Positions 3,121-24,873 of a stretch of 64,000 bases of DNA are shown here, piece after piece. The DNA comes from Thermoplasmatota archaeon (GTDB lineage Archaea; Thermoplasmatota; E2; DHVEG-1). The notes beneath the pieces are model-generated. The model had not been told where the DNA came from and searched no databases. It saw only the letters and a program-made list of their open reading frames with translations. Both the position numbers and the translations under genes were made by a program. Numbering within the stretch: the stretch's first letter is position 1; each line of letters starts with the position of its first letter. The stretch spans positions 795 to 64,794 of the forward strand of contig JAUXAU010000005.1 of NCBI GenBank assembly GCA_030619765.1. The letters are read 5' to 3'.

Positions 3121-4277
3121 TAGTTCGCAATTATCGAATGGGCTTCATCCATTGCTTGGCTCGCACATTGTTTGTGGGCTTCAACCTTCCATTGGCTCGC
3201 ATTTTCTCCTTGGGCTTCACATTTTATGTGGCTCGCAATTTGTCAGTGGGCTTCACATTTTCACTGGCTCGCATTTTTTTATTGGGCTTCAACATTATAT
3301 TGGCTCGCACGCTTTCTTTGGGCTTCACCTATGTGATGGCTCGCACATCTCAAATGGGTTTCAATTATCAACTGGCTCGCACGTTGTTTATGGGCTTCAA
3401 CCTTCCACTGGCTCGCATTTCCCTATTGGGCTTCAATCATCAAATGGCTCGCATATATTCGATGGGCTTCACATTCCAACTGGCTCGCATATTGGATATG
3501 GTTTTCAAAGTTTTTATGGCTCGCATAAACCCCATGGGCGTCATAAGTTCACTGGCTCGCATCTATGACATGGGCTTCAACGCTTCTATGGCTCGCACGT
3601 TGCAAATGGGCTTCATGTTCTTCATGGCTCGCATCTTTTCCATGGTCTTCAAATCTAGAGTGGCTCGCATATCTCGATTGGGCTTCAACTTTCAACTGGC
3701 TCGCATTTTTCCAATGGGCTTCAACCATCTAATGGCTCGCAGCTTGTCAGTGGGCTTCAATCTTTTCCTGGCTCGCAGTTTTTCAATGGGCTTCAATCTC
3801 TCAGTGGCTCGCATGTCTACCCTGGGCTTCAAACTCCCTATGGCTCGCACTATTACAATGGGCTTCAGTATCCCGATGGCTCGCACTCTCTATATGGGCT
3901 TCGGATGTTACATGGCTCGCATTCACATCATGGGCTTCAGTCCTTTCCTGGCTCGCATATAGTATTTGGGCTTCAATATCCCATTGGCTCGCATTTCTTC
4001 TCTGGGCTTCAATCTTTATATGGCTCGCATATTTCCAATGGGCTTCAAATTGTACATGGCTCGCATTTTCTTCGTGGGCTTCAAATCCAAGATGGCTCGC
4101 ACTTTTGGTTTGGGCTTCAGTTATCAACTGGCTCGCACTATTACGATGGGCTTCAGTATCCCGATGGCTCGCAAATTCCCCCTGGGCTTCATTCTTAGAT
4201 TGGCTCGCATTTATTATCTGGGCTTCAACCCCTTATTGGCTCGCACATTTTATTTGGGTTTCAATCTTTTCTTGGCT
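3121..4277 (-). ncRNA. TIGR array 1 (tandem interspaced guide RNA array), 32 units of 36 nt
   Basis: Strict period TGCGAGCCA-N9-TGAAGCCCA-N9 on the minus strand, 64 variable 9-nt spacers each flanked by CCA and TG (one by CG); begins ~14 nt after the stop of a Nop-domain gene. Confidence 0.93.
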
Positions 4278-4291
4278 ATTTTTAACATCAT

Positions 4292-5176
4292 TTAGAAGTT
4301 GTATTTGCCTTCCCAGTCTACAGCATCTCTCCATGTAGTAACGTCTTTGTGTCCTAATGCCTCTTTCACATAGGGTTCTCTGACATCTAATCCTGCCATT
4401 TCCCTAGCACATCCATAATAATGGGCCAGGAAAAGCTTCCTCGTTACTCTGAGTGCCATGTTATGTGCATGCCCTTTTATGAGTTTGGTATCCTCTTTTT
4501 TGTATGGTTTACCGTATTTGGCTTCTAATTCACCTTCCGGGTATTTTCTGTTCAAATATCTTGTTTTAGCATCGTTGTAACATTTTCTATAGATTCCCTT
4601 GTTTTGTTTCATCAGATTATCACTGATTTTCCATGTAAAGGTCAGCAGACGCGGGTTGAACTTCTGATCCTTGTGTCGTTTAGGTGCTTTTCCATCTCCT
4701 GTTACATCATTGCCTGTATGGCACCATAAACTGGAAGTTGTATGGTATTGTGAACAATCGCCAAATTCTTTTAACAAATTTGCACTGATAACAGGGCCGA
4801 TGCCTCTGATTTTTTCCAGAAACTCGGTGTAGACTTTCTCTTGTAACACATACTCGAGCATCCTATTTTTATATTTGTCTTCGATGTTCTCCGATTCATC
4901 TGCCAGATCCCAGCACATTTGTACATATCTATGTTCATGTTCGGTGATTTCTTTCTTTTCAAGTAAATCATTCCACAGATTGAAAAGTTGCTTGTCTGTA
5001 TATTTCTTTTTGAAGTCTCTGTCTTCCTTTTTTTCTTCTACAGCGTCAAAATCTATTCCTTCTACTTTTTTTCTTATGATGTCTCTTATTCGATTTTTGG
5101 TGCTTATTCTTACTTCTTGCATATCATAGTAGGCACCTGCTACTATCCTGCCTAACATTTTTGTTATATCTGACAT
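4292..5176 (-). CDS. tasA: TIGR-associated Nop-domain protein without nuclease domain (TasA-like)
   Basis: Coiled coil YYDMQEVRI..KNR, IS110/Nop-like IRGIGPVISANLL..GD...SSLWCHTG, YRKCY..AK, KGHAHNMALR..RKLFLAH, PY...LGH. No RuvC/DEDD or HNH motifs. Flanked by TIGR arrays. Confidence 0.88.
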   Translation of the reverse strand: MSDITKMLGRIVAGAYYDMQEVRISTKNRIRDIIRKKVEGIDFDAVEEKKEDRDFKKKYTDKQLFNLWNDLLEKKEITEHEHRYVQMCWDLADESENIEDKYKNRMLEYVLQEKVYTEFLEKIRGIGPVISANLLKEFGDCSQYHTTSSLWCHTGNDVTGDGKAPKRHKDQKFNPRLLTFTWKISDNLMKQNKGIYRKCYNDAKTRYLNRKYPEGELEAKYGKPYKKEDTKLIKGHAHNMALRVTRKLFLAHYYGCAREMAGLDVREPYVKEALGHKDVTTWRDAVDWEGKYNF

Positions 5177-9771: not shown

Positions 9772-9813
9772 TGACAGGAGTAATTCGTCAAAGGAAATAG
9801 AAAAGGTGAAACA

Positions 9814-10164: not shown

Positions 10165-10179
10165 AAGAGATAAATAAAA

Positions 10180-11338: not shown

Positions 11339-11374
11339 GTGAAAAACATGTTAGAATTGACAGAGGAATGAAAA

Positions 11375-11734: not shown

Positions 11735-12122
11735 AAAATCTCAAGAATCTATTAAGGAATCAATACGAATATTACGTATTGGTGGAATAATAGGTATGAA
11801 GGGACTTGGATATTTTTGTAAGACAGGTAGAAAAGAACTTACAAAAATTACTACAGCAGAAGCAGTTATTCAAGATCCTAGGATACCAAAACAGGTTTTT
11901 GTTATTGATCCATTGCCAACACAGTTTCTTCAAGACAGATATGATCTGATTGTAAAACTGGCAAGAGAATTAGGAATAAACGTTATCGATAGATCATTTT
12001 TGGAATCAAAGCCTTTCTGCCACATCTGCAAACGGCATTATGATGAATACGACTGTGTCACAGGATTTCGAGATGGTAGTGCAATATTTACTTGTGAAAG
12101 CTGTTTAAGAGGTGGCAGGTAA
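11727..12122 (+). CDS. Hypothetical protein with C-terminal Zn finger
   Basis: CHIC...CESC; likely start MDKK overlapping the upstream stop. Confidence 0.7.
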   Translation: MDKKSQESIKESIRILRIGGIIGMKGLGYFCKTGRKELTKITTAEAVIQDPRIPKQVFVIDPLPTQFLQDRYDLIVKLARELGINVIDRSFLESKPFCHICKRHYDEYDCVTGFRDGSAIFTCESCLRGGR

Positions 12123-12133
12123 ATGGAGGGGAA

Positions 12134-12352
12134 ATGAAAGCGAAGTGTCCGTATTGCCAAACACCTGTCAACATACGATCAGTGTATAATTTGTGCCGAA
12201 GGCATGGTGATGCCGATGGTATTACAGCAGCAACGGGTTATCATCGATGCCCTGGGTGTAACAAGGTGTTTGAATATTCAACTAGTGAAGTAAAAAGCTG
12301 GGAACAGGTTACTGAAACAACGATGTTGCCGGAGAAAGATAAGGTGAAATAA
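12134..12352 (+). CDS. Small Zn-ribbon protein
   Basis: CPYC...CPGC; GGAGG RBS. Confidence 0.75.
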   Translation: MKAKCPYCQTPVNIRSVYNLCRRHGDADGITAATGYHRCPGCNKVFEYSTSEVKSWEQVTETTMLPEKDKVK

Positions 12353-12844
12353 ATGGAAAAAGATGATATAATAAAACAACAAGAAGAACATGACAAGAGA
12401 AAAAAAATCATTCAAAAGCAGAAGTTGATAAATGACTATGGGCTTAAGATATTTGAAACAACAGCTGAAATGGAGTATAAAGTAAAGTTGGATGATGATG
12501 GGCATATCTTAAATCCATTAACAGATGAGAAGATAGATGAGATCTGCAACATTTTAGGAATCGATGATTTGAAAATGAATGAATGTACACTTGCAATCAC
12601 TGATGCTGATGACATCCAAAAGGCTGCTAAGACAAAAACCAATAGATTTCTTGCCCATTTTGTGAAAGCGAAAGGCAAAGAAGTCATGTTGCTGTCCTGG
12701 GTTGCAGAATATAATACTCCTGATAAGCATATTTTAGAGTTTACAGATAATAGTGTAAAAGGCTGTGAAAAAATAAATGAGTTATTAGTGAAGCATTTAG
12801 GAGATCTAGCTGGTTTTACTGAATTTGTTGAAAAACAAAGGTGA
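12353..12844 (+). CDS. Hypothetical protein
   Basis: AGGTGA RBS; abuts the upstream stop. Confidence 0.75.
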   Translation: MEKDDIIKQQEEHDKRKKIIQKQKLINDYGLKIFETTAEMEYKVKLDDDGHILNPLTDEKIDEICNILGIDDLKMNECTLAITDADDIQKAAKTKTNRFLAHFVKAKGKEVMLLSWVAEYNTPDKHILEFTDNSVKGCEKINELLVKHLGDLAGFTEFVEKQR

Positions 12845-12850
12845 AATAAA

Positions 12851-13816
12851 ATGGATGAAGAGTTGAAACGATTAGAGCAATTCGGGTTACTGAAGATTAG
12901 TAAAATAAACTCGACTGGCGTAAAGTGTCGATTATCTAGTAATTGTATAGAGGGAATACTTAACTCCGTCCAAGGAGTATACACAGGGCATCAATCCTTG
13001 GGTGAAGAACTAAAAAAGATAGCATTAGATAGCATAAAAAATATGATACAGCAAATTAATTTTTGTACTGGAGATTGTTCTAGCTGCAATTTTTTTGCAT
13101 GCAAAATTATTTTCGAGATATGGGAACAAATGGAGAAAGCTGGTGAGGTTAAGCTAAAGACTGGTATGGTTGTTAGGCATCATACCTTGTTAACTTTATC
13201 TGTTGTGGAAGAAAAGGTAAAAGAAGTATTCAAAAGGGATGGGTTTGTTACATCTGCGCTTTTTACTCCTGATAGAATATATTATATGCCACCTTTTGAA
13301 AATGCTACGGAAAAAGAAGACGCATATAAATCCTTGCGTAAAATTATTCAGGATGTAAACCCAGAGAAATACTGGTTTGTGTCTGAAGCATGGCTTGGAT
13401 ATAATATATTTACAGCTCCTTCTGAGGATGAGAATAGAGAAAAAAAAGTAATAATTATAGAATATGGTCGTAGTGATCCAACGGAAGAAAAAACAGTTTT
13501 ATATGATTTGGATTTTGATAATCGTACTTTGGTTAATCGTGAAGAGCATACAGGAAATGAATATGATGATCGTATGAATTTTTATTTGGAAGATGTAGTA
13601 GAGGAAAGAGGACAGCAATTTGTCAAAGAAAAGTTAACCGAGTGGATACATGAACATGAAAAATCAGTTATCGAAGATGCGAAAGAATTCCTTGGTTCAA
13701 ACGATACAGAGTATGTTATCAAAAATATGGTAGAAGCAGCTTTGAATGATGGTATTTTTCCTCCCGGTTTTATTGATAAATATAAGGGAAAACAGGAGAA
13801 AGATAAGACTAATTGA
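12851..13816 (+). CDS. Hypothetical protein
   Basis: 321 aa, AGGTGA RBS; CTGDCSSC and FVSEAW motifs. Confidence 0.75.
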   Translation: MDEELKRLEQFGLLKISKINSTGVKCRLSSNCIEGILNSVQGVYTGHQSLGEELKKIALDSIKNMIQQINFCTGDCSSCNFFACKIIFEIWEQMEKAGEVKLKTGMVVRHHTLLTLSVVEEKVKEVFKRDGFVTSALFTPDRIYYMPPFENATEKEDAYKSLRKIIQDVNPEKYWFVSEAWLGYNIFTAPSEDENREKKVIIIEYGRSDPTEEKTVLYDLDFDNRTLVNREEHTGNEYDDRMNFYLEDVVEERGQQFVKEKLTEWIHEHEKSVIEDAKEFLGSNDTEYVIKNMVEAALNDGIFPPGFIDKYKGKQEKDKTN

Positions 13817-13843
13817 AAAGAGAAAAAAGATAAATGTGAGATA

Positions 13844-14062
13844 ATGAACTGCCCTAACTGTGGATATAAATTCGATGGTCATATGTGTATTGCCGATGAA
13901 AAAGCTGAATTTAGAGATGGTGATATCTCCATTTGTTTAAACTGTGGAGAGGTTCATCAATATAAAAATGGAGTTTTAGAGTTAATTGATATACGGGATC
14001 TCCCAAAAGAAATACAAGAAGAGATATTGAAAATAAATGCGGTTAGACAACTGATGAAATAA
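13844..14062 (+). CDS. Small Zn-finger protein
   Basis: CPNCG...CLNCG. Confidence 0.78.
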   Translation: MNCPNCGYKFDGHMCIADEKAEFRDGDISICLNCGEVHQYKNGVLELIDIRDLPKEIQEEILKINAVRQLMK

Positions 14063-14574
14063 TGACCGAACTCAAACCCCAACTCTATTGTACTAAAAAA
14101 ACCGAAGGACCTATATTCAGGCCTATTGAGAATGATAATTTTATAAAACCAAATGGGGGGATATGGACTTCTACTTATACTCCCAATGAGAAATATCCTA
14201 GTGCATGGTATGAATGGTGTGCTATTGTAAGCCCTGGAAAGGTAGAGCCACCCTGCTATTTTTACATTCTATATCCCAAAGATACAGCAAAGGTATATAC
14301 AATTAATTCTCGCGAGGATCTAAAAAAACTCTATCAAAATGGTTTTGCTTGTACTGATACAGGTATTCCTTTTATAAAATTCCTCGATTTTGTGAAGGTT
14401 GCAAAAGTATATGATGCAATTCATCTCACTGAAAAGGGACAAGTAAGCACTCCCTTCTCATCTGGATCATATAGTCTAGACTGGGATTGTGAATGCACTC
14501 TATGGTTTAGAGATGTCTTTGAAGAGATAAAAAGTATCAATATTACGGAAGTATTAGAGGATGAGGTGAAATAG
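14062..14574 (+). CDS. Conserved phage-type hypothetical protein
   Basis: KPNGGIWTS...W.EWC...YDAIHLT..G...WDCECTLWF pattern; TAATG coupling with the upstream gene. Confidence 0.7.
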   Translation: MTELKPQLYCTKKTEGPIFRPIENDNFIKPNGGIWTSTYTPNEKYPSAWYEWCAIVSPGKVEPPCYFYILYPKDTAKVYTINSREDLKKLYQNGFACTDTGIPFIKFLDFVKVAKVYDAIHLTEKGQVSTPFSSGSYSLDWDCECTLWFRDVFEEIKSINITEVLEDEVK

Positions 14575-14997
14575 TTGGAAGAAAAAAATCAGCGGGTTCT
14601 GCAAGAAGTTGAAACATTATTATCTGATCTATCTACAGAGTTTAATGTACCAATGCCTATGTACTGTGTCTACGATTTATATCCTATGAAACGACTCGGT
14701 GAATTCAAACCCCCTGGATCAGTTTCGAGAGCCAAAATATCTAATCCATTGGTTGGTGTGATACCAAAGGCATGGTTTGTTTCTGCTCGTAAAATATGTT
14801 ATTTAGTGTTGTTTCTCCAGAATAGAAAGTTTGTTGGAAAGGAGAATATTGTCCATGAGTTTTTTCATTATAAACACTATGTCGAGAGTGATTATGACTG
14901 GAGGAATAGAACATCAGAAGAACAGGAACAAGAAGAGAAAAGAACGCAGTCTGAAACAAGAAAATACATGAAGAAACTTAGAGAAAAGGTGAAATAA
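14575..14997 (+). CDS. HExxH zincin-like metallopeptidase domain protein
   Basis: IVHEFFHYKH followed by a downstream EE. Confidence 0.65.
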   Translation: MEEKNQRVLQEVETLLSDLSTEFNVPMPMYCVYDLYPMKRLGEFKPPGSVSRAKISNPLVGVIPKAWFVSARKICYLVLFLQNRKFVGKENIVHEFFHYKHYVESDYDWRNRTSEEQEQEEKRTQSETRKYMKKLREKVK

Positions 14998-15480
14998 ATG
15001 AGATTTAAATCAAAAATAAAGAGGCAACAGAACAATGACGGGATAGGTTACAACATTTTTAAAATACCACAAGCGTTTACTGATGAAGAGGTCTATTTTG
15101 ATAGAGTTATTGCAAATACCCTTCGGAAGATACCAGAAAATGTAAGAGACAAGATTATTATTAATGAAGTAATATTTAATCGTGGAATATCCGAAGATTA
15201 TGGATCAGCAGACGAGTTATGGTTGCGAGTTTCATCAGAGGCAACAGAGATTAGACGTCCTCTCATTACATTAAATTTTACAAAGATGATGAATGACAAT
15301 TTAACTGAATCTGATATGATGTTTCATATTGCGCATGAAATTGCCCATGTTGTTTTAGAACATCATAAACCACGTGAATTTAATATGGAGCAATGGTTAG
15401 CTGATGAACGAGAAGCAGATGAGTTAGCAAAGAAATGGGGGTTTAAAAAACCAAAAAAGAAAAAAGATAAGGTGAAATAG
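14998..15480 (+). CDS. ImmA/IrrE-like HExxH metallopeptidase
   Basis: IAHEIAHVVLEH...EREADELAKKWGF. Confidence 0.8.
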   Translation: MRFKSKIKRQQNNDGIGYNIFKIPQAFTDEEVYFDRVIANTLRKIPENVRDKIIINEVIFNRGISEDYGSADELWLRVSSEATEIRRPLITLNFTKMMNDNLTESDMMFHIAHEIAHVVLEHHKPREFNMEQWLADEREADELAKKWGFKKPKKKKDKVK

Positions 15481-15482
15481 AA

Positions 15483-15776
15483 ATGAAAGGGAATTTTGAT
15501 GGCGCATTCGGATCACCGGGACCTGTTGGATGTATATTTTGCGGGGATAAAAAGGTGCCGGGGTCTTGTTGGCATGGTTCTACAGATATTTTTGTATGTT
15601 ATCAATGCATACGAGAAGGAATGTTAGGACGATTAATTGGAGATGCTATAGCAGATCATAATTGTAGTGAGTTAGATTATGGTACAGTGCATCAGGTGTT
15701 AGAGAGATTATTAACAGCAACTGAGAAGGAAGCGTTATATACAATAATTCATCAAAAGGACATGCTAAAGAAATAG
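15483..15776 (+). CDS. Zn-finger hypothetical protein
   Basis: CIFCG...VCYQC (ClpX Zn-finger-like spacing). Confidence 0.65.
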   Translation: MKGNFDGAFGSPGPVGCIFCGDKKVPGSCWHGSTDIFVCYQCIREGMLGRLIGDAIADHNCSELDYGTVHQVLERLLTATEKEALYTIIHQKDMLKK

Positions 15777-15972
15777 GTATATTATGACGTAATTATATGT
15801 CCGAAACAGCTGATGATTTAGAAAAGCAATTAGCAGCATTAAAAAACAACGTGAGAGGCTTGAAGAGGGAACAAAACAGGAAACAGCTACGGAACGTGCC
15901 CGTCGGATTGCAGATTTTTATGGGATAGACATTAAAGGGTGGAAATTAAAGGAGCCATGTGGTAGCCCGTAT

Positions 15973-16284
15973 TTGAGCATGGTAGTGGATTTGAAAACAA
16001 ATACTATATATCTTTGTTCAGCTTGGATGAAACATGAAACAGATGAGACAGTAGCGTTTTATCTTACCCATGAGGTTTCACATAGAAAAACAAAGGATGA
16101 GGCTCTTGCTACTCTTTATGGCATTGAGATATTAAAGGATAAAATGCCCTCTGATGATCTCAAAAAGAGGGCTAGCATATGGTATGACGATTATAGTGCT
16201 AGGACACCCGAAGAGACGTTTTTATATCCCGCTGATCTTAAGTATTTAGAGAAGATAAGAAAGTATACTACTGGTGAAGAATAG
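15973..16284 (+). CDS. HExxH-motif protein; start uncertain, may extend upstream
   Basis: YLTHEVSH...DEALA. Confidence 0.55.
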   Translation: MSMVVDLKTNTIYLCSAWMKHETDETVAFYLTHEVSHRKTKDEALATLYGIEILKDKMPSDDLKKRASIWYDDYSARTPEETFLYPADLKYLEKIRKYTTGEE

Positions 16285-16407
16285 GTAAAAGAATGAAAAA
16301 ATTAAGAAGAGTAGAAATATGGAGACGTAAAGTTTATCTACCAAAAACGTAATACAGATGAAAAGTGAAGTATAAAATTAACTGAATAAAAATAAGTAGG
16401 TGATTAA

Positions 16408-16764
16408 ATGAAAAGAAAAGCAAGTCGAGAAGATGCGAAACGATTGGAGAAACCTGCTAAAATACCGGAAATACTTGGAAGAGACGACATCGGAGAGGAC
16501 CCTGGACAATCTATAGATTTTGAAATTGTAAAAGATGACAAGGGTCGATTAATTCTACACACAGTAGGGGAACACATAACGACAGAAGATGAATATAACC
16601 GGTATCCTAAACCGTTTTTCGTGTCTAAAGAGTTAAAGGCGTTTTTGAAGGAAGAACTCCTCGACCGTGGAGCTGCTATGAGGAATGACCAAGAGCAGAT
16701 GATATACCTCACCTGTAATCCCCAAGATATAATTCATGATGATGATAACCAGAAAAAAAAATAA
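16408..16764 (+). CDS. Hypothetical protein
   Basis: AGGTGA RBS; last gene of the rightward run. Confidence 0.65.
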   Translation: MKRKASREDAKRLEKPAKIPEILGRDDIGEDPGQSIDFEIVKDDKGRLILHTVGEHITTEDEYNRYPKPFFVSKELKAFLKEELLDRGAAMRNDQEQMIYLTCNPQDIIHDDDNQKKK

Positions 16765-16805
16765 AAAGAGTATTTTATAATATCTCTCCTAGTCTTGGTT
16801 CATTA

Positions 16806-17447
16806 TTAGGATTCTTTTTTATTCTTTTCTTTTTCCTTTCGCATTTCTTTAAATGTCTCACGGAACCATTTATCTACTTCTTCATCGCTGTCGTTACCAG
16901 TGTACTCACCATGTGATGCATCTAAAGTAGAAGATCTCATCCAGTATCCACGTACCCATTTAGGGAAGTCTCTAAGTTTTTCCACCTGTTTACATAATGC
17001 CATCAATGGCATAAGTTCTGTTACTTCTTGGAAACCTAGTATTTCTCTTGTAACAATATATCCACGTTTCATAATGTAGCTTTCGATAGCTTCTTCAATG
17101 ATACGATTTCTAGTGATTTTCATAAGCTCCCATCTTTTAGTGTCCCTCTTGGCTATATCATCCAAAATTTCCACATATTCAGGGGGGAGGGAGATGGTAA
17201 ACTTTCTCCATGGGTTATTTTCTAGTTCCTCTTGTAAATCATCTGCTTCACCTTGTGTGAATTCGATGATTCTATCATCGTCTTGATCGTAGGGTAGAGA
17301 AAGCCGATATTTGCGGTTTCTCTCTTCTTCAGCTGCCTTTTTAAAGAATTGCTTTTTGGTTTCTTCTTTTTCTTCTAACATTTCTAACACCTTGTTAAAT
17401 TGGGTAAGTTTTTTAATAACTTGCCATGTTATTGTATGTGCTATCAA
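16806..17447 (-). CDS. Protein with internal ribbon-helix-helix domain
   Basis: KFTISLPPEYVEILDDIAKR...ITRNRIIEEAIESYI. Confidence 0.7.
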   Translation of the reverse strand: MIAHTITWQVIKKLTQFNKVLEMLEEKEETKKQFFKKAAEEERNRKYRLSLPYDQDDDRIIEFTQGEADDLQEELENNPWRKFTISLPPEYVEILDDIAKRDTKRWELMKITRNRIIEEAIESYIMKRGYIVTREILGFQEVTELMPLMALCKQVEKLRDFPKWVRGYWMRSSTLDASHGEYTGNDSDEEVDKWFRETFKEMRKEKEKNKKES

Positions 17448-17684
17448 GTATTTAATGCTTTCGGTATTTGGCTTGATCGGCGGTGATTAATTGTTATTGG
17501 ACTACAAACAATGTGGATATGCATAAAAAATATGTGAGTATATTTTAATGAAAATTTATTATGGGTAATAAAATAATTAATATATATTTAGTTGGGAGAG
17601 TAGAATGATATTAGTCGATGGTTAAAAATAAAAGAAGGGGAGAGGAGACGAAACTTTTAAATGGTCACAATAATATACTAATAT

Positions 17685-17945
17685 TGCAAATAGTCAGATA
17701 AGAATTAGAATCTGGCAGACTATTGCGAGCCAATGTAAGGATGAAGCCCAATGGAAAAGTGCGAGCCATTATGCAGTTGAAGCCCAGTTGAAATATGCGA
17801 GCCATATAAAGATTGAAGCCCAAGAGTTTCTTGCGTATAGCCAAGATGGCTGTGAAACCCATGGAATTTCTGCGTAGCCAGGATGAATATGAAACCCACT
17901 TGGCACTTGCGTAAACCAACAAACACATGAAGGCCAAAAGATAGT
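17685..17945 (+). ncRNA. TIGR array 3 (orphan), 6 clear units plus 1 degenerate unit
   Basis: TGCGAGCCA-N9-TGAAGCCCA-N9 on the plus strand from 17724; edge repeats vary 9-12 nt; TATA-like TTTTAAA ~25 nt upstream. Confidence 0.9.
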
Positions 17946-17983
17946 ATTGACTAACTTATCAATTTTTAAGTCAGTCAATACTA
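17942..17983 (+). terminator. Stem-loop at the 3' end of TIGR array 3, homologous to the array 1 hairpin
   Basis: TAGTATTGACTAACTTA-8 nt-TAAGTCAGTCAATACTA, 17-bp stem with one mismatch. Confidence 0.75.
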
Positions 17984-18012
17984 ATATTCAATATCAGATA
18001 GGAAAATACTGC

Positions 18013-18174
18013 CTATTGAATTACCTTCCGCAGCCTTAACTCACCAATACCAATGGGTTCAATATCCAACATGTCTCCAGCCTTAAATCTATATAGATCG
18101 CATACTTGCTTCGGAATTGTGATAACGAAGCTACCGTGGACCAATCGTAGTTTTCGTTCCATATGGAAACCCAT
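18013..18174 (-). CDS. AbrB/MazE/SpoVT-family DNA-binding protein
   Basis: RKLRLVHGSFVITIPKQVCDLYRFKAGDML. Confidence 0.85.
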   Translation of the reverse strand: MGFHMERKLRLVHGSFVITIPKQVCDLYRFKAGDMLDIEPIGIGELRLRKVIQ

Positions 18175-18420
18175 AGGGAGAATCACCGTATAAATGTATG
18201 GTATTAAGGAGAGTTTTTTACTTGTTTGGTAACCCATCACTCTATCCTCTTTGTTTTAGAAAAAACCAAAAGAAAAACCCTGCTTGGCATGACTTATTAT
18301 ATAATAAAGACACTAATCATTATATCCTTATGACTGGAGTAAACGACCTTTAAAATCCAGATAAATCAAAACAAGGGGTAAAAACCTCTGTTTCACTTAT
18401 AAATTCTCCTAGAACAGAAT

Positions 18421-18480
18421 ATGGGCCCGCCGAACCGTGAACAGACTAACAGGAGAAAAACCAGGTAAAACATTACAGGT
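18421..18480 (+). repeat. att-like direct repeat R1 containing 12 bp of the tRNA-Pro 3' end
   Basis: 54/60 identical to 22645-22704; contains TGGGCCCGCCGA as in both att sites. Confidence 0.8.
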
Positions 18481-18583
18481 GTTTGATGGTTTTGATTTAG
18501 CAGATTTCGGTTCCGAAGATTTATATATAAAACTTCACTTATTTTATTTAAGATTGAAGTGCTTATCGAGAAGAAGGCATAAG

Positions 18584-21500
18584 ATGAAAAAAGAACTAAT
18601 TGGATTTTTAATCTGTATATTGTTGGTTTCAACAGTTGTTTCACCTGTGGCTGGAACCGTAACTATTTGTAAAAAAACTTTAGCAGAAGAACAAGCTGTT
18701 TTTAACAAATTGTCAAAAAATATGTTGAATGTCCCTGTAAAAATGGTTGATGAAGAAATAGAAAAGTATGAGACTTATGAAAACTCTGGCTCATTTTGGT
18801 TAGATAGAGCATACCACTTGAAGAACCCTTTTCCTGCAACGAACAGGAATGGCAATGATGATGCAGGATATAAGAAGGATGCAGGGGATGAAATTAGTGA
18901 ATCTCTTGCCATATATCCTGGTGAGATGATTGATGATTGGCCGGGTAGAGGAAGAACTGGTAAATTAAACTCCACCGATGAAGATTGGTATTTATTCTCA
19001 GTTTGTGCTGGTCAAGATATCATTATTACTATGACTCCTCCAACAGGTCACAACTATGATATCGGTCTTTGGGACAAAAACGAAAATGAGAAAGCAACTT
19101 CTACAAACTCTGGTAGTGCAACTGAATCAATAACATTCACTGCAGATTATACTGGTAAATGGTACATGAGAGTTCATTATATTAGCGGTACAGGTGAAGG
19201 ACAATACTCTTTTGATGTAACCTTATCTGGACAAAACGATGCAAATACAGGCAATGATGCCGGTGATAATTTTGCCTCTGCAACCTCAATTACAACTGGA
19301 TCATACGAAGGATATCTTGATATGAATGATGAAGAAGATTGGTATAAATTTAATATAAATGAAGGGCAAAACATTCATTTCATATTACTTATGAAAAACT
19401 ACGCTTTGCTATCTGATTTTGATATCTATCTTTATAACCCTAATAGCTCAATGATACACGCTAAAAATTATTATTATGATGATGAACTTTTTTATCCTAT
19501 AGATGAGTCAGGTTACTGGCGGGTAAGAATTAAGATATTTCCAGGTTACACAGACATTCCCGATCCAACAGAATGGGATTATTACACCTATGGTTCTGGT
19601 GCATACAAATTGCAGTTTAATCTGGAATCAACCGTTCCAGACCCACCTAGCCCAATTCCACAGCCACAGATAACACCTATCGCGCAAACCTTCAAGATAG
19701 CAAATGACCCAGATAGTAATAAGGATGAATATGGATATCTAGCGTCAATTCCAGCCTGTAACTATTTAGATGGTGGAGACAGATATCTTGCACCAATTGT
19801 TTATACTGGCGATACGACACTAACAAATTGGTTTGGAACTGTTGATGATACCACTAATTATCTACTAGATGATTGGAACACATATCTTAGTGATCACGGT
19901 AAAACCGCGGTACAATATACTATTCCCTCTGATCCATTACAAGCCGCAGCTGAAATAGCAACACAAAATTGGGCTTCATCAGATTTGGCTGTTGTTGCCG
20001 TTGACGGAAGTGATTACGAGGATACCACTTCACAGGTTCTTCATGAAACAAAAACATTAACACGTAATGCTGAAGTTAAAACCATACCGAACGATAGTAA
20101 TAAAATAAAAAAAATGGGTAGTTCCTATATCTATCCTATGACATTGACGTCAGAATGGGGTGCTATTAATGTATCAATCTACGGACCTAGTATTCCAGGC
20201 GGAGGTATGATTCATATTTACCCATCGTTAATTCAACTCTATCCCAAGTTTATGAGTCTCACAAGCGACTGGTGGCCCGCCTCTGCGGATATACCGAGAT
20301 ATGATATTTATTATCCAGTTACAACACCTGGTATATGGGCAGCTGGAGTAAAAGCTCCTCTAGGGGATTGGGACTTTATAATTACTAAATATGAATGTGA
20401 CAGATATAACATAAAAGTCAATGACGATGACGCTACATTAAAAGCAACAGTAACAACCTCAACACCATCAGATCTTTTAGTGTTCCTAGTTGATCCACAA
20501 GGACATATTAGAGCACCAGATATCCCTGATTGGAATGGAGGACCCATCCTACCAATTCATGAATGGCATGGTTTTGATGATGGTGATCCTTCTACCCCAT
20601 GTGATCCTTGGAGGGATTGGAATCCAGAGCCGCATACTGAGTTTACTGCTGAAGTGCTTCATCCTGAAAAAGGAACATGGACGGCAATTGTTGTACCAAG
20701 GAATGCACAAGGGTCATCCAGCGTTCAATATACAATTAGTGCAGAAATAAGGAAGTTAAATCAGAAGCGTGTAAATGCAGCATTATCTGCTGCGAATGCT
20801 GCAGTAATTGCCTCACAAGAACATGTTCCGCTGTTATATGTCAAAGAAAATAGTGTGCCTGCAGAGACACAAAATGCTTTTGCTACACTTGGTATTAGTA
20901 AAGTCATATTTGTTGAAAATAATGAAATAGGAAACAATGTTCGGAATGACCTGCCGACTTTAGAGGCAGATTTAAAATCTATGCAAGAAATTATAGATTA
21001 TATCAAAGACTATCCATCCTCTGAAAACTATATCACAATTACCTCACTGAAAACGGGAGATGGTTATTTTGCACCGTCTGCTATGATTGCCGCATATCAT
21101 GGTTCACCTGTTCTTCGTTTAGAAGAGGCAAAAAGTGCTGCTTCATCAGTGCCTGTAAATTATAATGTAATTGTAGGTCAGGTGAACAAAAATGTTTACG
21201 ACGTTATGGGCACCCCAACTGGAAAGATGCTCTGGAACAACCCAACAAACATTGAAGAATCTGAAGACACTAGCGATAGCCTTTTCCTAAATCTAGATGA
21301 AGAACCCATACCATTGTTTGGATCAGCAGAATCACCTAATCCTGCAGGTATGGCAAATCGAATAGATACCTGGAGACTTTGGGATGGAGACTACTATCAT
21401 GGAAATCGTGCTCCTGGTCATCTACCAATGTATAAGGAACCTGTTCCCGAATTTAGCAATTTTAAATTATTAATTGAGCTTATCAAGTACTTATTCTCTG

Positions 21501-22573
21501 GTAATAACAGTGATCTCCCACCACTCGGAATGGATGCAAAACGATATTGGAATGAAGAGATGCACAAAGGCATTCACAAATGGATTAATGATTATGGGCT
21601 TAACATAGATGGAAAAGAAGCATTTGTCTTTGTAGCACCGCGTAAGGATATTCGATTAGAGACTCATTCGGTGGTGATGGGTAACAATTCTTATTCTGGG
21701 CATATCCCTGGGGAGACACCAGCATATACATCAGATATAATTGTAAGAAATATTTTATATCCAGCGTTAATCTATGCAAATCCTAACAGGGATGTAACTA
21801 GCACTCAATTTATGAACTATCCTGATGGAGAAACCTGGAAGACAAACGACGGCGTTACCCATCAAGTAAAGTCAAGCCAAGTTCTCAAAAATGTGTTTAT
21901 GTCTCATGGAAGAACTTACGATGGTCATTGTCTGTGGGATGCTCATCTTGAACGTCTGAATGAAGGCGCCAGCGTCATGTACTATTCTGGTCATGGAACA
22001 GGCGGAAGTGGTATTTCTGCTCAGTATCTCCAAACAAATCATTCTAATTATCCGGATCAGATCTGGCCTGATGCTTGGCGAGGCTACATGTATGACAACT
22101 GGAAAACAGCTCGTAATAATGGTATGCGATGGTATAACCCAGAAGCACCAAATCTATATGACTTCATTCACTTCAAATGGATAGATCAGCTGTTAGATAA
22201 TCTCAAAAGTAACGCTGTTTTCTATATGTCTTGTTCAACTGGGCAACATTTTGGACCGCTTGTATATCTAGATCACGGAGCGGTAATGTGGTATGGTAAT
22301 GCCGGCTCTGGACTATGCCCTGAGGCAGATCTTATGGATGACTGGTTCTTCGAAGACGCAATGATGCATGGAGAGCCTGTGGGTCTAGCTTATTCAAAAT
22401 ATGTATGGCTTCACTACCGTGATTTTACAACAGGTGATCCAACATCAATGTATGGTCCATCATCAATGAAGGGTGTTACTACTATTAACTGTATATATGG
22501 AGATCCTAACCTAATTCTCTACAGTCCAGATTGGACTGCACCGGTACCAGTAGATTCTGTCTTAGATGATTAG
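18584..22573 (+). CDS. Large secreted protein with pre-peptidase (PPC-like) repeats and a C-terminal C25 (gingipain-like) cysteine peptidase domain
   Basis: Signal peptide MKKELIGFLICILLVS; repeated DEDWY..F / DxDIYLY modules; YSGHG, YMSCS and IYGDP motifs. Confidence 0.8.
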   Translation: MKKELIGFLICILLVSTVVSPVAGTVTICKKTLAEEQAVFNKLSKNMLNVPVKMVDEEIEKYETYENSGSFWLDRAYHLKNPFPATNRNGNDDAGYKKDAGDEISESLAIYPGEMIDDWPGRGRTGKLNSTDEDWYLFSVCAGQDIIITMTPPTGHNYDIGLWDKNENEKATSTNSGSATESITFTADYTGKWYMRVHYISGTGEGQYSFDVTLSGQNDANTGNDAGDNFASATSITTGSYEGYLDMNDEEDWYKFNINEGQNIHFILLMKNYALLSDFDIYLYNPNSSMIHAKNYYYDDELFYPIDESGYWRVRIKIFPGYTDIPDPTEWDYYTYGSGAYKLQFNLESTVPDPPSPIPQPQITPIAQTFKIANDPDSNKDEYGYLASIPACNYLDGGDRYLAPIVYTGDTTLTNWFGTVDDTTNYLLDDWNTYLSDHGKTAVQYTIPSDPLQAAAEIATQNWASSDLAVVAVDGSDYEDTTSQVLHETKTLTRNAEVKTIPNDSNKIKKMGSSYIYPMTLTSEWGAINVSIYGPSIPGGGMIHIYPSLIQLYPKFMSLTSDWWPASADIPRYDIYYPVTTPGIWAAGVKAPLGDWDFIITKYECDRYNIKVNDDDATLKATVTTSTPSDLLVFLVDPQGHIRAPDIPDWNGGPILPIHEWHGFDDGDPSTPCDPWRDWNPEPHTEFTAEVLHPEKGTWTAIVVPRNAQGSSSVQYTISAEIRKLNQKRVNAALSAANAAVIASQEHVPLLYVKENSVPAETQNAFATLGISKVIFVENNEIGNNVRNDLPTLEADLKSMQEIIDYIKDYPSSENYITITSLKTGDGYFAPSAMIAAYHGSPVLRLEEAKSAASSVPVNYNVIVGQVNKNVYDVMGTPTGKMLWNNPTNIEESEDTSDSLFLNLDEEPIPLFGSAESPNPAGMANRIDTWRLWDGDYYHGNRAPGHLPMYKEPVPEFSNFKLLIELIKYLFSGNNSDLPPLGMDAKRYWNEEMHKGIHKWINDYGLNIDGKEAFVFVAPRKDIRLETHSVVMGNNSYSGHIPGETPAYTSDIIVRNILYPALIYANPNRDVTSTQFMNYPDGETWKTNDGVTHQVKSSQVLKNVFMSHGRTYDGHCLWDAHLERLNEGASVMYYSGHGTGGSGISAQYLQTNHSNYPDQIWPDAWRGYMYDNWKTARNNGMRWYNPEAPNLYDFIHFKWIDQLLDNLKSNAVFYMSCSTGQHFGPLVYLDHGAVMWYGNAGSGLCPEADLMDDWFFEDAMMHGEPVGLAYSKYVWLHYRDFTTGDPTSMYGPSSMKGVTTINCIYGDPNLILYSPDWTAPVPVDSVLDD

Positions 22574-22644
22574 ATATTTAGAGCGATACCTAGCTAAAAT
22601 CAGGAGACTATGATTACAGACAGTCTTTTTCTCCTGGAGAGTTC

Positions 22645-22704
22645 ATGGGCCCGCCGAACCGCAAACAATCTAACAGGAGAAAAACCAGGTAAAACAATAT
22701 AGGT
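22645..22704 (+). repeat. att-like direct repeat R2
   Basis: Copy of R1; overlaps an 11-bp stem TTTTTCTCCTG/CAGGAGAAAAA. Confidence 0.8.
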
Positions 22705-22714
22705 TTTTACGGTT

Positions 22715-23080
22715 TTAATTTTTATCTATCTTTTTCTTAAGATTTATTCCTGCTATTGATGATACAAATTCAATTGATGCATCAAAGATATCCTGATCTT
22801 TCAAATAATCCTCTGATTTGTTCCTATTTATCTGGATCCATTCTCTCATTTTTCTGCCCATGGGTTGAAAATGCACAATCTCTTTCCTTTTTAGTAGTTC
22901 ACTTGCTAATGATTCGGGAACTTTCACACAGACACCCTCCATATAAAGAGAAGCGAAAAGCTTACCTCCGACATAATAAGCAGGATGGCCGTACATCTTT
23001 CCTGGTTTAACGATTGGAATGTTTAGTAAAAACGAATCAAGAACTTCTTTATGTTTTGGATTAAATTGTACTTTTGCCAT
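22715..23080 (-). CDS. TfoX N-terminal/YjbR-like protein
   Basis: GKMYGHPAYYVGGKLFASL...FQPMGRKMREWI. Confidence 0.75.
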   Translation of the reverse strand: MAKVQFNPKHKEVLDSFLLNIPIVKPGKMYGHPAYYVGGKLFASLYMEGVCVKVPESLASELLKRKEIVHFQPMGRKMREWIQINRNKSEDYLKDQDIFDASIEFVSSIAGINLKKKIDKN

Positions 23081-23099
23081 TTTTATTATCCTCCTTCTA

Positions 23100-23621
23100 T
23101 TATGGTTTTTTTGCTGCGCTTCCAGGGCAGATAAACTGCATTTTACATTTTTCACAATCTATCTTATGCAGTATGCCATTAATAGCTACTAATGCAATGA
23201 AAGGAACAAGGTAAACTAATTCATCAATTAGAGATACTTCGTTTATAGCTATCATGGCAATCATTACGATTATTGGTAGACCCATAAGTATCCCCCATGT
23301 TAATCCTGCAAGTTTTCCTCCAAGTTTTTGATCTCCAGTGTTTTTCTTAAATATAGCAGATGAAAGTTTTCCCCAACCGCAATGACACCATTTATCATAA
23401 TAATAACAATTTGTACAGAGATGTTTTCTCAGCATAAAAAATAACATAATCACAGCAAATAAAACATATAGTATTGAAACAAGAGGGAGGCTAATGATCT
23501 TGAGTGGGTACATGCCCAGAAATCCCAATATTATCATTCCAAAAATAAGAACATTCTCACATATAACGTAGCCTCTACTACATTCCTCTACGCCATCTTC
23601 ATACAATTTTTCTTTATTCAT
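23100..23621 (-). CDS. Membrane protein with Cys clusters
   Basis: Four hydrophobic segments; CTNCYYY..WCHCGWG and CEKC...CP. Confidence 0.75.
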   Translation of the reverse strand: MNKEKLYEDGVEECSRGYVICENVLIFGMIILGFLGMYPLKIISLPLVSILYVLFAVIMLFFMLRKHLCTNCYYYDKWCHCGWGKLSSAIFKKNTGDQKLGGKLAGLTWGILMGLPIIVMIAMIAINEVSLIDELVYLVPFIALVAINGILHKIDCEKCKMQFICPGSAAKKP

Positions 23622-23692
23622 AATTTTTATTCCTCCAATCCTGGGAGATATGTAAGTGGTTTTTAAAAATCTAACGTAATTTTTTTTGAATA

Positions 23693-23738
23693 AGTGGGCC
23701 CGCCGAGATTTGAACTCGGGTTACCAGCACCCCAAGCT
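23693..23738 (+). repeat. att site (duplicated 3' half of tRNA-Pro)
   Basis: AGTGGGCCCGCCGAGATTTGAACTCGGGTTACCAGCACCCCAAGCT, identical to 36823-36868. Confidence 0.97.
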
Positions 23739-24591
23739 AGATTATAAGGAGAAAATAATCGCTTCTCAGCAAGATTTGGACAGATATATTACACTTAGAG
23801 AAATAAGTGGTGTATGCAATCGTTGGTTGTACGAACTTAAGTTAATACTCAATGGATATCTATCATACACAAATAAAACAATATCTGAAGATAAAACCCT
23901 AGAATATATCATGGTATTGAAAGATAAGTATTCACCATCTACCTATAGGAAACACGTATACCAAATACGTAAGTTCTTAACACAGCTAAAGATGGAATGG
24001 GCTAATAACATTATACCACCACCAGAACCGAATTACATACCAAAAAGACTTACAAAGGATGATATAATTAATTCACTAGCCTACTTTAAGGAGCACACAT
24101 TCTATAAACAGATAAAAACTATCATATTGCTCGGCTCTACTACAGGTATGAGAGCTGAGGAATTATATCAATTGCAACCAGATGATATTGATTTAGAAAA
24201 TAGAATTGTATACGTTAATCACAATCCAGATAATGGACAAAGCACAAAGACAGGACGGAATAGAATTGCAATATTCAACTTTGAGACAGAAGAGGCATTG
24301 CAAGGATATCTATCTTATTTCAATAATAATAGTGCTCTAAAGTGCCTATTTAATAAGTATCATCTAGAAAGAATATTTCATAATGCACCTATCAAAGTGA
24401 AAGATTTACGTAAGTTCTTCAGCCAGGAGTGGGACAGACGTGGAGGACCAACATCCATTAAGAAAATCCTTATGGGGCACTCATTGAAAGGTGATGTTGA
24501 TTTGATGCATTATAACGCTCAATCAGAAGATGATTTGAAAAAGATATATGATAAGGTGATGGCCGAGGGAGCAGGGCTGAGGGAAGGGTAG
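23695..24591 (+). CDS. int: Tyrosine integrase C-terminal fragment, int(C), SSV1-type split integrase
   Basis: TGMRAEE, TKTG, KDLRK, LMGHS and MHY catalytic motifs; reading frame begins inside the att site (WARRDLNSGYQHPKL). Confidence 0.92.
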   Translation, partial: WARRDLNSGYQHPKLDYKEKIIASQQDLDRYITLREISGVCNRWLYELKLILNGYLSYTNKTISEDKTLEYIMVLKDKYSPSTYRKHVYQIRKFLTQLKMEWANNIIPPPEPNYIPKRLTKDDIINSLAYFKEHTFYKQIKTIILLGSTTGMRAEELYQLQPDDIDLENRIVYVNHNPDNGQSTKTGRNRIAIFNFETEEALQGYLSYFNNNSALKCLFNKYHLERIFHNAPIKVKDLRKFFSQEWDRRGGPTSIKKILMGHSLKGDVDLMHYNAQSEDDLKKIYDKVMAEGAGLREG

Positions 24592-24873
24592 TATAGAGAG
24601 GAAGAGAGGAGTGGAAGGGGATGTGGTAAGGGTAAATAGTGTAACCTGTTGATACCTTACCTTGTTAAAATTAATGGATATAAGTCTAATCGGTTTTAAT
24701 CATTGAATTATTGCTCTAATCTGAGTATTTTATCGTTAAAGTAGAGTCCCCTTTTCATCATTTCTCCAACTCTGCCCCCTTTCTCAATCAAATATTATAA
24801 TTTAATAGTCTAATAAAAAGAAAACATTTTGCAACGAGCTTTCCATTACGTATATAAGTGAGGTTAAATAAAA

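What the first reader, a model, noticed from the sequence alone, without database searches (positions are those of the whole stretch)
17685..17983. Third, orphan TIGR array 12 kb away, in opposite orientation at the far end of the island
Seen: the same repeats on the plus strand with a TATA-like box upstream and a terminal hairpin, but no adjacent tas gene. One spacer A (TATAAAGAT) is identical to one in array 1 (unit at 3985) but has a different spacer B. Edge repeats vary in length here (TGCGTATAGCCA, TGCGTAGCCA, TGCGTAAACCA) while the loop repeat stays 9 nt. Inference: these guides are loaded in trans by the single TasA, and half-units can be reassorted.
Basis: partly seen in the sequence, partly recalled or inferred. 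Interest (0 to 1): 0.75.

Follow-up and report, generated by a model that had tools for sequence, protein, structure and literature searches.

The report
Chimeric satellite TIGR guide array
A small extra guide-RNA array sits at the far end of the mobile element that carries a TIGR-TasA system in a sediment archaeon, and it mixes two repeat types, linking the TasA locus to guide arrays scattered elsewhere in the same genome.

Summary
Window 17685-17983 (+) is a real dual-repeat TIGR array. It has a BRE/TATA-like promoter, one degenerate first unit, six regular units and a strong terminal hairpin. It lies 12.5 kb from the only tas gene of the element (4292-5176, -), a 294-aa nuclease-free TasA.

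New findings:
- The element is an integrase-bearing insertion, and array 3 ends 275 bp before its right attachment repeat.
- The "variable" edge repeats are not random decay. They belong to a second repeat class, with 10-13-nt edges built as the two edge halves plus a 1-4-nt linker. This class forms at least six Tas-less arrays elsewhere in this genome.
- Array 3 is a chimera: class II promoter and first edge, three class I units, then three class II-like units.
- The unit that shares spacer A with array 1 sits exactly at the class I to class II junction, which fits a crossover in the loop repeat.
- Across 78 units in the genome, half-spacers shared with unrelated partners are about 3-4 times more common than chance predicts.

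Loading in trans by TasA is plausible but untested: no RNA data and no targets were found. A second Tas gene (TasParB-TasA) exists on another contig. This scan had already noted distal or orphan TIGR arrays on other DNA.

The parts
17649..17662 (+). BRE-like CGAAA plus TATA-like box of array 3
   Evidence: Sequence. The TTAAA core lies 28 nt before the first edge. Five Tas-less arrays of the genome show the same geometry at 25-28 nt. The 43 nt at 17651-17693 are 86% identical to the promoter of the array on contig C52.
17685..17723 (+). Unit 0: a degenerate first unit with a 12-nt edge, 9-nt spacer, decayed loop and 9-nt spacer. The transcription start is predicted at its first bases.
   Evidence: Register read. 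The edge differs by one base from the first edge of the contig C13 array. The start site is inferred from the TATA distance.
17724..17831 (+). Units 1-3, class I (9-nt edge, 36-nt period). Unit 3 carries the spacer A shared with array 1.
17832..17945 (+). Units 4-6, class II-like (edges of 12, 10 and 11 nt; loops with a variant centre). No 3' edge half follows the last spacer B.
17942..17983 (+). Terminal hairpin with a T5 run in its loop; probable terminator
   Evidence: I3.: -18.3 kcal/mol, z = -4.29, and 1 of 200 shuffles folds as well.
17675..17704 (+). Left copy of an imperfect direct repeat that brackets the array body. The right copy is at 17978-18004.
   Evidence: D6, D9; 26 of 27 aligned bases identical with 3 gaps; score 34 against 15.4 +/- 2.5 in shuffles; 0 of 2000 shuffles reach it.
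17978..18004 (+). Right copy of the flanking direct repeat
4292..5176 (-). tasA: 294 aa, coiled coil plus Nop domain, no nuclease domain
   Evidence: TasR 9mty E 1.2e-23; TasH E 2e-18. (all-helical model, pLDDT 86.7). (top 10 structure matches are all TasR or TasH). (116 homologues).
3121..4278 (-). Array 1: 32 units, class I, directly after the tasA stop codon
5560..5930 (-). Array 2: 10 units, class I with degenerate 5' units, upstream of tasA, ending in a hairpin
18259..18278 (.). Right attachment repeat (attR core) of the TIGR-bearing integrated element. The left copy is on contig C110 at about 73073-73090, next to a tyrosine integrase.
16806..17447 (-). 213-aa ORF divergent from the array 3 promoter. 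It has a weak ribbon-helix-helix match and may be a regulator.
   Evidence: RHH_3 E 0.0024, below the curated cut-off. No paralogue in the genome.
18013..18240 (-). 75-aa AbrB/MazE-like ORF between array 3 and attR
   Evidence: PF04014 E 5.6e-4, below the cut-off. Paralogues on contigs C60 and C115.

Best explanation
Array 3 is a genuine satellite TIGR array with its own transcription signals. It lies at the attR-proximal end of the same integrated mobile element that encodes TasA.

Shown:
- Its anatomy: promoter-like box, seven units and a hairpin.
- Its chimeric make-up: class II-type promoter and first edge, three class I units, three class II-like units.
- Its position 275 bp from the element's right attachment repeat.
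- A nuclease-free TasA with a conserved Tyr/His processing pair 12.5 kb away.

Inferred:
- Transcription starts at the first edge repeat and stops at the hairpin.
- TasA dimers bind each unit through the UG and CCA boxes. They cut the precursor between the two halves of the edge repeat.
- The 1-3 extra bases of units 4-6 lie exactly at that cut site, so they are tolerated or trimmed.
- About five usable guides of 36-39 nt result.
- These guides steer TasA, which has no nuclease, to 18-bp DNA sites. Spacer A pairs with one strand and spacer B with the other. TasA then binds or represses the target, most likely on competing mobile elements.
- The class I units entered a class II array by recombination within the short repeats. 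One crossover in a loop repeat created the unit with array 1's spacer A and a foreign spacer B.
For: Array and boxes:
- The array is real and beyond chance.
- All 12 repeats of units 1-6 start with TG and end with CCA, the boxes that contact Tas in the TasR structure (Faure et al., PMC12045711, passages).
- All differences from consensus lie in the repeat centres.

Promoter and terminator:
- Promoter geometry is shared with five other arrays: TTAAA lies 25-28 nt before the first edge.
- The promoter is 86% identical to that of the C52 array.
- The hairpin folds with z = -4.29.

TasA:
- It matches the Nop parts of TasR and TasH.
- The model is all-helical, and its 10 best structure matches are TasR or TasH.
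- Y269 and H276 align with the catalytic Y289 and H296 of SpTasH (PMC13421893, passages). H276 is invariant in 30 homologues.
- Only two Tas genes are found in the genome. The other one has its own, different array.

Mixed edges:
- Edges with 0-4 inserted bases occur within single Tas-adjacent arrays in metagenome loci L059-L063.
- They also occur in own contig C110.

Same element.

Half-unit exchange.
Against: - No expression data exist, and no RNA run holds the region.
- No target was found for any guide in the organism's own genome.
- The last unit lacks a 3' edge half, and the first unit is decayed.
- The edge of unit 6 loses the inner C-G pair.
- The published view of dual-repeat systems is a fixed 36-nt guide that places the cut site within reach of the Tyr/His pair (Xu et al. 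preprint, sections read). Units of 37-39 nt may therefore be processed poorly.
- The Tas proteins next to variable-edge arrays in metagenomes are only 21-27% identical to this TasA.
- The genome is 88.8% complete, so a class II-specific Tas could be unassembled.
Confidence: 0.55

Rival explanations
1. Array 3 is a non-functional relic. It is a short recombination product or decaying fragment left at the element's end, and it is no longer transcribed or used.
For: - It has only 6-7 units, against 32 and 10 next to tasA.
- Its ends are degenerate: unit 0 is decayed and no terminal edge half follows the last spacer B.
- It is bracketed by an imperfect direct repeat that suggests a rearrangement.
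- A related sediment contig keeps the upstream region but departs from the window exactly after the first edge.
- No targets were found.
Against: - All box motifs are intact in 12 of 12 repeats.
- The promoter lies at the same distance as in five other arrays and is 86% conserved with C52.
- The hairpin is strong.
- Variation is confined to positions that make no base-specific contact in the TasR structure (PMC12045711).
Confidence: 0.25
2. The array is functional, but at least its class II-like units are served by another Tas protein. This could be the TasParB-linked TasA on contig C16 or a Tas gene in the unassembled 11% of the genome. The class I/II mixture would then be a by-product of recombination.
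For: - A second Tas gene exists: 239 aa and about 30-32% identical over the 186-residue aligned stretch.
- Class II-like variable-edge arrays in metagenome loci L060, L062 and L063 lie beside Tas proteins of another clade.
- Completeness is 88.8%.
Against: - The C16 Tas gene has its own adjacent array of about 22 units. Its repeats differ at box positions (AGCGAGYCA and GAAAACCA types).
- Class I and class II edges share both half-sites and differ only by the linker.
- Both classes sit under one promoter in array 3, and they are also mixed in the C110 array.
- A profile search finds no third Tas gene.
Confidence: 0.13
3. The repeats are not guide RNAs at all. They would be a cluster of archaeal box C/D sRNAs or protein-binding iterons near the attachment site.
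For: Tas proteins and box C/D Nop5 are related, and clustered sRNA genes exist in archaea (PMC12045711 discussion). The array lies 275 bp from attR.
Against: - No Rfam family matches at the gathering threshold in the window.
- At E <= 1 in 17500-18100 there is only one chance hairpin hit.
- The units are identical in design and sequence to the arrays that flank tasA.
- The 36-nt period with 9-nt variable parts fits tigRNAs, not sRNAs of 50-60 nt with 12-nt guides (the sRNA figures are recalled).
Confidence: 0.03

Closest known systems
Dual-repeat TIGR-TasA systems (e.g. FpTIGR of Flavonifractor plautii; Faure et al. 2025, PMC12045711)
   Same: - Alternating edge and loop repeats that begin with UG and end with CCA.
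- 9-nt spacers A and B and a 36-nt period.
- An array ending in a hairpin.
- A nuclease-free Nop-domain effector with the Tyr/His processing pair.
   Different: - Array 3 is 12.5 kb from tasA, on the other strand, with its own promoter.
- Half of its units have edges of 10-12 nt (period 37-39).
- It combines two repeat classes.
- The published catalogue searched only 10 kb or less around tas genes, and its seeds require 4-bp repeat centres (Xu et al. preprint, methods passages). Arrays of this kind would therefore be missed.
TasParB-TasA loci with 10-nt repeats (Faure et al. [quoted passage not shown]
   Same: A nuclease-free TasA and repeats longer than 9 nt. A locus of this type (ParB-like ORF plus 239-aa Tas plus array) exists in the same genome on contig C16.
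   Different: The repeats of the C16 array differ from both classes in array 3. No ParB-like gene lies near array 3. The ParB-like label rests on my reading of a conserved motif in the ORF, and Pfam gave no match.
Stem-loop TIGR arrays and the 'intermediate' arrays of Faure et al.
   Same: Variable-length sequence between the box D of one unit and the box C of the next. Processing occurs at linkers.
   Different: The extra bases here number only 1-4 and form no palindromic stem. This TasA keeps the Tyr/His loop that stem-loop Tas proteins lack (Xu et al., section read).
Orphan CRISPR arrays and virus-borne mini-CRISPR arrays that use Cas proteins encoded elsewhere (recalled from general knowledge; no paper read here)
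   Same: Guide arrays without an adjacent effector gene, carried by mobile elements, and presumed to borrow an effector in trans.
   Different: A different RNA-guided system: Nop-domain Tas, dual 9-nt spacers, and no adaptation genes.

Membership tests
Dual-repeat TIGR array | Two distinct alternating repeats of 8-12 nt separated by about 9-nt spacers, repeated in tandem | tested here: met
   Six units with 9-nt spacers. Edges are 9, 9, 9, 12, 10 and 11 nt, and all loops are 9 nt.
Dual-repeat TIGR array | Both repeats start with UG (box D) and end with CCA (box C) | tested here: met
   12 of 12 repeats in units 1-6. Unit 0 fails: its edge ends TCA and its loop is decayed. The box definitions come from PMC12045711 and the yeast preprint.
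Dual-repeat TIGR array | The centre of the edge repeat has complementary terminal bases; the loop centre does not | tested here: met
   The edge centre runs C...G in 5 of 6 edges (the unit 6 edge has C...A). Loop centres run A...C. I read this. The rule comes from the Xu et al. methods.
Dual-repeat TIGR array | Located directly upstream or downstream of a tas gene | tested here: not met
   The nearest tas gene is 12.5 kb away on the other strand. It is in the same integrated element.
Dual-repeat TIGR array | [quoted passage not shown] | tested here: inconclusive
   A hairpin is present, but no recognisable edge half follows the last spacer B.
Dual-repeat TIGR array | Transcribed and processed into about 36-nt tigRNAs bound by Tas | not testable with these tools
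   No RNA run is listed for the region.
TasA (solo-Nop Tas protein) | Nop domain homologous to those of TasR and TasH | tested here: met
   phmmer gives 9mty_A at 1.2e-23 and the TasH chains at 2e-18. Foldseek's 10 best matches are TasR or TasH, with E from 1.9e-9 to 5e-7.
TasA (solo-Nop Tas protein) | No RuvC or HNH nuclease domain | tested here: met
   The protein has 294 aa. Its residues 16-66 align weakly to residues 121-167 of the 331-aa TasR chain and residues 112-279 to 167-315, so the first 120 or so TasR residues, taken here as its nuclease part, have no counterpart. The model has helices only and no strands. Pfam finds no nuclease family.
TasA (solo-Nop Tas protein) | Tyr/His processing pair of dual-repeat Tas proteins | tested here: met
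   Y269 and H276 align with SpTasH Y289 and H296. H276 is invariant in 30 sequences. Tyr is the majority residue at its column but is not in the 90% list.
Archaeal box C/D sRNA cluster | Match to a C/D sRNA covariance model, with RUGAUGA and CUGA boxes and guides of about 12 nt | tested here: not met
   No Rfam match. The unit length and boxes differ. The box consensus is recalled.

The most novel reading that the evidence does not exclude
TIGR arrays may diversify without any adaptation machinery. Recombination within the 9-nt repeats would shuffle half-units, so that new spacer A/B pairs, and hence new 18-bp specificities, arise combinatorially. In this archaeon a single TasA carried by one integrated element may also serve a genome-wide network of at least seven promoter-bearing arrays on other mobile elements, whose edge repeats tolerate a 0-4-nt linker at the processing site. 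Array 3 would be the physical record of exchange between the effector-linked arrays and the effector-less ones.
Probability: 0.3. Interest if true: 0.8.

Novelty: new variant of a known kind. Interest (0 to 1): 0.6.

Why it matters
Two open questions about TIGR-Tas systems were stated in both papers I read. How do arrays gain new spacer pairs when no adaptation genes exist? And what do nuclease-free TasA systems do in nature?

This locus offers a concrete, testable example for both.
- It has a junction unit that looks like a crossover product.
- It shows a statistical excess of shared half-spacers.
- One effector gene shares a genome with many promoter-bearing arrays that have no effector of their own.

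It also shows that arrays can lie beyond the 10-kb window of the published catalogue, and can have edge repeats of mixed length. Catalogues may therefore undercount arrays. The rule of a fixed 36-nt guide for dual-repeat systems may also be looser than stated.

Tried and rejected
Targets:
- I compared the guides with the organism's own genome in both possible strand arrangements, using the other arrangement as the control.
- Arrays 1-3, no gap: no exact hit. With 2 mismatches there were 37 hits against 40 for the control. This call included one mis-registered unit of array 1, and that unit gave the only 1-mismatch hit in the favoured arrangement. The correctly registered first unit of array 1 was never searched.
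- Arrays 1-3, gaps of 1-2 bp: 4 against 6 one-mismatch hits, none from array 3.
- The 31 class II guides: no exact hit; 3 against 8 one-mismatch hits.
- All of this is at chance level.
- I did not scan public virus collections for 18-mers, because chance hits are expected at that length. Xu et al. make the same point in their discussion.

Expression: no RNA holder is listed for 8400-18300.

Relatives of the element:
- A 321-aa island protein found nothing in viral contigs or metagenome contigs.
- Neither repeat class occurs as an exact unit in the 117 other genomes of the order.
- The class II unit pattern gave 0 viral loci.
- In species-representative genomes it gave four single chance matches with no arrays and no Tas gene.
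- The position of array 3 in relatives therefore could not be compared.

Sediment run X1 (DNA contigs, 5% of the sampled words):
- It holds relatives of 11.5-14.5 kb and of 17496-17696 at about 86-90% identity.
- One 531-nt contig leaves the window right after the first edge and joins the hairpin on the opposite strand.
- This could be an empty or different array, or an assembly fold-back at the palindrome. I draw no conclusion from it.

Other checks:
- MAFFT did not align the two flanks of the array convincingly. A local alignment did.
- Contig C52 shares only the promoter and repeats with the element, and no proteins.
- Literature: the terms 'TIGR array' plus 'orphan' gave no relevant paper. 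'Orphan' does not occur in Faure et al.. Neither 'orphan' nor 'in trans' occurs in the Xu preprint. bioRxiv supplements were not available, so array tables there may list distal arrays.

Full report
**What is there.** Window 17685-17983 holds tandem units on the + strand.
- A parse of all three repeat regions of the window gave 31 + 10 + 6 units. One further first unit of array 1 is visible.
- Array 3 has units starting at 17724, 17760 and 17796 with the 9-nt edge TGCGAGCCA and the 9-nt loop TGAAGCCCA.
- It has three more units at 17832, 17871 and 17908 with edges of 12, 10 and 11 nt and 9-nt loops whose centres vary.
- All spacers are 9 nt.
- The edge word occurs 42 times in the 3,170,404-base genome, and 40 of these lie in the three arrays. 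Chance is therefore excluded.
- The stretch 17685-17723, just before unit 1, has the register of a seventh, decayed unit: a 12-nt edge, 9 nt, a degenerate loop, then 9 nt.
- The array ends in a hairpin at 17942-17983 with 17-nt arms. As RNA it folds at -18.3 kcal/mol, z = -4.29, with five T in the loop. No edge half follows the last spacer B.

**The effector.** The ORF at 4292-5176 (-) encodes 294 aa.
- Pfam gives only a sub-threshold Transposase_20 match. PHROGs gives a 'transposase' family at 5e-37.
- Against solved structures it matches the Nop part of TIGR-TasR (9mty, E 1.2e-23, residues 112-279 to 167-315) and TasH (E 2e-18).
- An AlphaFold model built from 30 homologues (pLDDT 86.7, pTM 0.81) contains helices only. 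Its 10 best Foldseek matches are TasR and TasH chains, followed by IS621 recombinase and Nop5.
- It is therefore a nuclease-free TasA.
- Y269 and H276 align with Y289 and H296 of SpTasH, the residues reported to cut pre-tigRNA (PMC13421893, passages read). H276 is invariant in the 30-sequence alignment.
- The clade is well populated: 116 homologues at E <= 1e-5, the best at 83% identity.
- Protein and profile searches of the whole genome find one more Tas gene only, on contig C16. That gene is 239 aa, follows a 216-aa ORF that I read as ParB-like (Pfam gave no match), and is followed by its own array of about 22 units with different repeats.

**The edge-length variation is a second repeat class.** A motif scan of the genome found further arrays on contigs C11, C13, C52, C54, C78 and C110.
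- Their usual edge is TGCGTAGCCA (10 nt) and their loops are TGAAAYCCA.
- At array ends the edges reach 11-13 nt.
- All of these edges read as the two halves of the class I edge (TGCG and AGCCA) with 1-4 bases between them.
- None of these arrays has a Tas gene nearby by tblastn.
- Units 4-6 of array 3 are of this type.
- The first edge of array 3 differs by one base from the first edge of the C13 array.
- Its promoter and first edge (17651-17693) are 86% identical to those of the C52 array.
- Array 3 is thus class II at both ends, with three class I units in the middle.
- Mixing occurs elsewhere too. The C110 array holds one 9-nt class I edge and one class I loop, and C78 holds one class I loop.

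**Promoters.** In array 3 and in five Tas-less arrays, a TTAAA core preceded by an A-rich stretch lies 25-28 nt before the first edge repeat. For array 2 the distance is 20 nt. Archaeal TATA boxes are usually centred about 26 bp upstream of the start site (recalled). On that basis transcription would begin at the first edge repeat. This step is an inference.

**Where the array lies.**
- In the same-genus genome G055, the DNA homologous to own contig C110 up to about 73092 continues directly into the homologue of window 18259-18433, and then into tRNA-Pro (window 36825 onward).
- The junction carries a 17-nt exact repeat (19 of 20 bases) that is present both at C110 about 73073-73090 and at window 18259-18278.
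- A 404-aa tyrosine integrase lies just inside the left copy (PF00589, E 7.5e-15).
- The TIGR locus is therefore part of an integrated element of at least 26 kb. This spans C110 73.1-80.3 kb, a contig gap, and C96 up to window 18258.
- Array 3 ends 275 bp before the right end, with only a 75-aa AbrB/MazE-like ORF between them.
- The element is specific to this genome. A TasA homologue occurs in 3 of 118 genomes of the order, including this one, and in 0 of 5 other genomes of the genus.
- Exact class I and class II units occur only in this genome: 31 and 10 matches, against 0 in the other 117.

**Comparison with public DNA.**
- Thirteen viral contigs hold an exact class I unit. Nine of them have a Tas homologue at 23-45% identity.
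- Their arrays keep the 9-nt edge while the loop centre varies freely. Linker length is 0 in nearly all units, for example 29 of 32 in L054.
- L054 has four arrays around one tas gene.
- Six metagenome contigs hold a class II unit.
- In L059-L063 the linker varies from 0 to 4 nt within one array. L060, L062 and L063 also carry a Tas homologue at 21-27% identity, and L059 has a weak match to the C16 Tas only.
- One Tas protein can therefore plausibly use edges of mixed length.
- L058 couples a class II array to a CxxCxxCC-domain gene like those of the element. It ends in a hairpin like that of array 2.
- According to passages of their methods, Xu et al. seed arrays on repeat centres of exactly 4 bp, extend at 4-5 bp, and scan at most 10 kb on each side of tas. 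Array 3 lies outside both limits.

**Half-unit sharing.**
- Unit 3 of array 3 has the spacer A of the array 1 unit at 4029-3994, while their spacers B differ at 9 of 9 positions.
- The chance of at least one exact half-spacer match between array 3 and arrays 1 and 2 is 0.016 by letter shuffling, with 0.019 pairs expected.
- This unit is the last class I unit, directly before the first long edge. A crossover in its loop repeat would produce exactly this pattern. That reading is an inference.
- Over all 78 parsed units of classes I and II, 18 pairs share a half-spacer within one mismatch. Eight are whole-unit duplicates. Ten have an unrelated other half.
- The expectation for half-only pairs is 2.5 (letter shuffle; 0 of 2000 reach 10) or 3.4 (column shuffle; P = 0.007).
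- Compositional bias and convergent targeting remain possible alternative causes.

**Other structure.** A direct repeat brackets the array body: 17675-17704 against 17978-18004, with 26 of 27 aligned bases identical and 3 gaps. None of 2000 shuffles scores as high. It suggests that the array body arose or moved by recombination at the first-edge region. I cannot say more than that.

**Function.**
- Nuclease-free TasA proteins bind DNA targets under tigRNA guidance and repress transcription (Xu et al. preprint, sections read).
- Spacer A pairs with one strand and spacer B with the other, adjacent to each other (Faure et al., sections read).
- From the reported 8-nt 3' overhangs and the 'C - 5' rule, I derived the target as spacer A followed by the reverse complement of spacer B.
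- No guide of any array matches the organism's own genome above the control arrangement. The targets are unknown and are probably other mobile elements.
- Nothing here shows expression.

**Verdict.**
- Reassortment of half-units gains statistical support.
- The idea of a single TasA and of merely 'variable' edges needs correction.
- Earlier notes of this scan had already flagged Tas-less TIGR arrays in this genome and distal mini-arrays in phages. I confirmed the former only in part.
- The taxon label (Thermoplasmatota, Marine Benthic Group D) comes from those notes and not from my own calls. My calls show only that TFIIB and Alba genes make it an archaeon.

Noticed in passing
L002 (own contig C16 24045-27578): ORFs at 687-1337 and 1339-2058, array at about 2100-2900: A second TIGR system in the same genome. 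A 216-aa ORF, ParB-like by my reading of its motif (no Pfam match), is followed by a 239-aa Tas protein (about 30-32% identical to TasA over the aligned stretch). After that comes an array of about 22 units with different repeats, then a DnaB-like gene.
   Followed up: partly
Own contigs C11 about 9290-9680 (-), C13 about 10400-10540 (-), C52 28111-28545 (+), C54 about 3990-4110 (-), C78 about 1000-1130 (+), C110 about 21590-21960 (+): Six Tas-less TIGR arrays of the 10-nt-edge class. Five of them have a TATA-like box 25-28 nt before the first edge. C11, C13 and C54 share a conserved upstream block, so they probably belong to one family of small mobile elements.
   Followed up: partly
window 6024-7267: 78-nt inverted repeats (91% complementary) at 6024-6101 and 7190-7267 enclose a 335-aa ORF with no family match. 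The ORF has paralogues on contigs C86 (79% nt identity) and C123. This looks like an insertion-sequence-like element that landed about 100 nt upstream of array 2.
   Followed up: partly
window 18434-36824: A second, separate insertion relative to same-genus genomes G055 and G056, next to tRNA-Pro (36824-36897). It holds a 1378-aa PPC-domain protein flanked by 78-nt direct repeats (18421-18498 and 22645-22721, 87% identical), a tyrosine integrase (23686-24591), and NosD/beta-helix and Big_7 proteins.
   Followed up: partly
window 40-1327: The TFIIB gene and the neighbouring Alba gene recur as a pair at about 70-85% identity on many contigs of this genome (13 and 10 tblastn places) and in same-genus genomes. 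The pair may be a module of a family of integrated elements.
   Followed up: no
window 5347-5508 (-): A 53-aa ORF lies between the terminator of array 2 and tasA. It has no family match and no paralogue. It could be a small regulator of tasA.
   Followed up: no
window 17496-17696 and 17983: A sediment DNA contig (run X1) is about 88% identical over 17496-17696. It leaves the window exactly at the end of the first edge repeat and joins the terminal hairpin on the opposite strand. A relative may have an empty or different array there, or this may be an assembly artefact at the palindrome.
   Followed up: no
window 3121-5930: Arrays 1 and 2 share whole duplicated units (for example, one unit is identical in both arrays and another is present three times with point changes). 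Array 2 begins with three degenerate units, one of which has a 10-nt edge.
   Followed up: partly
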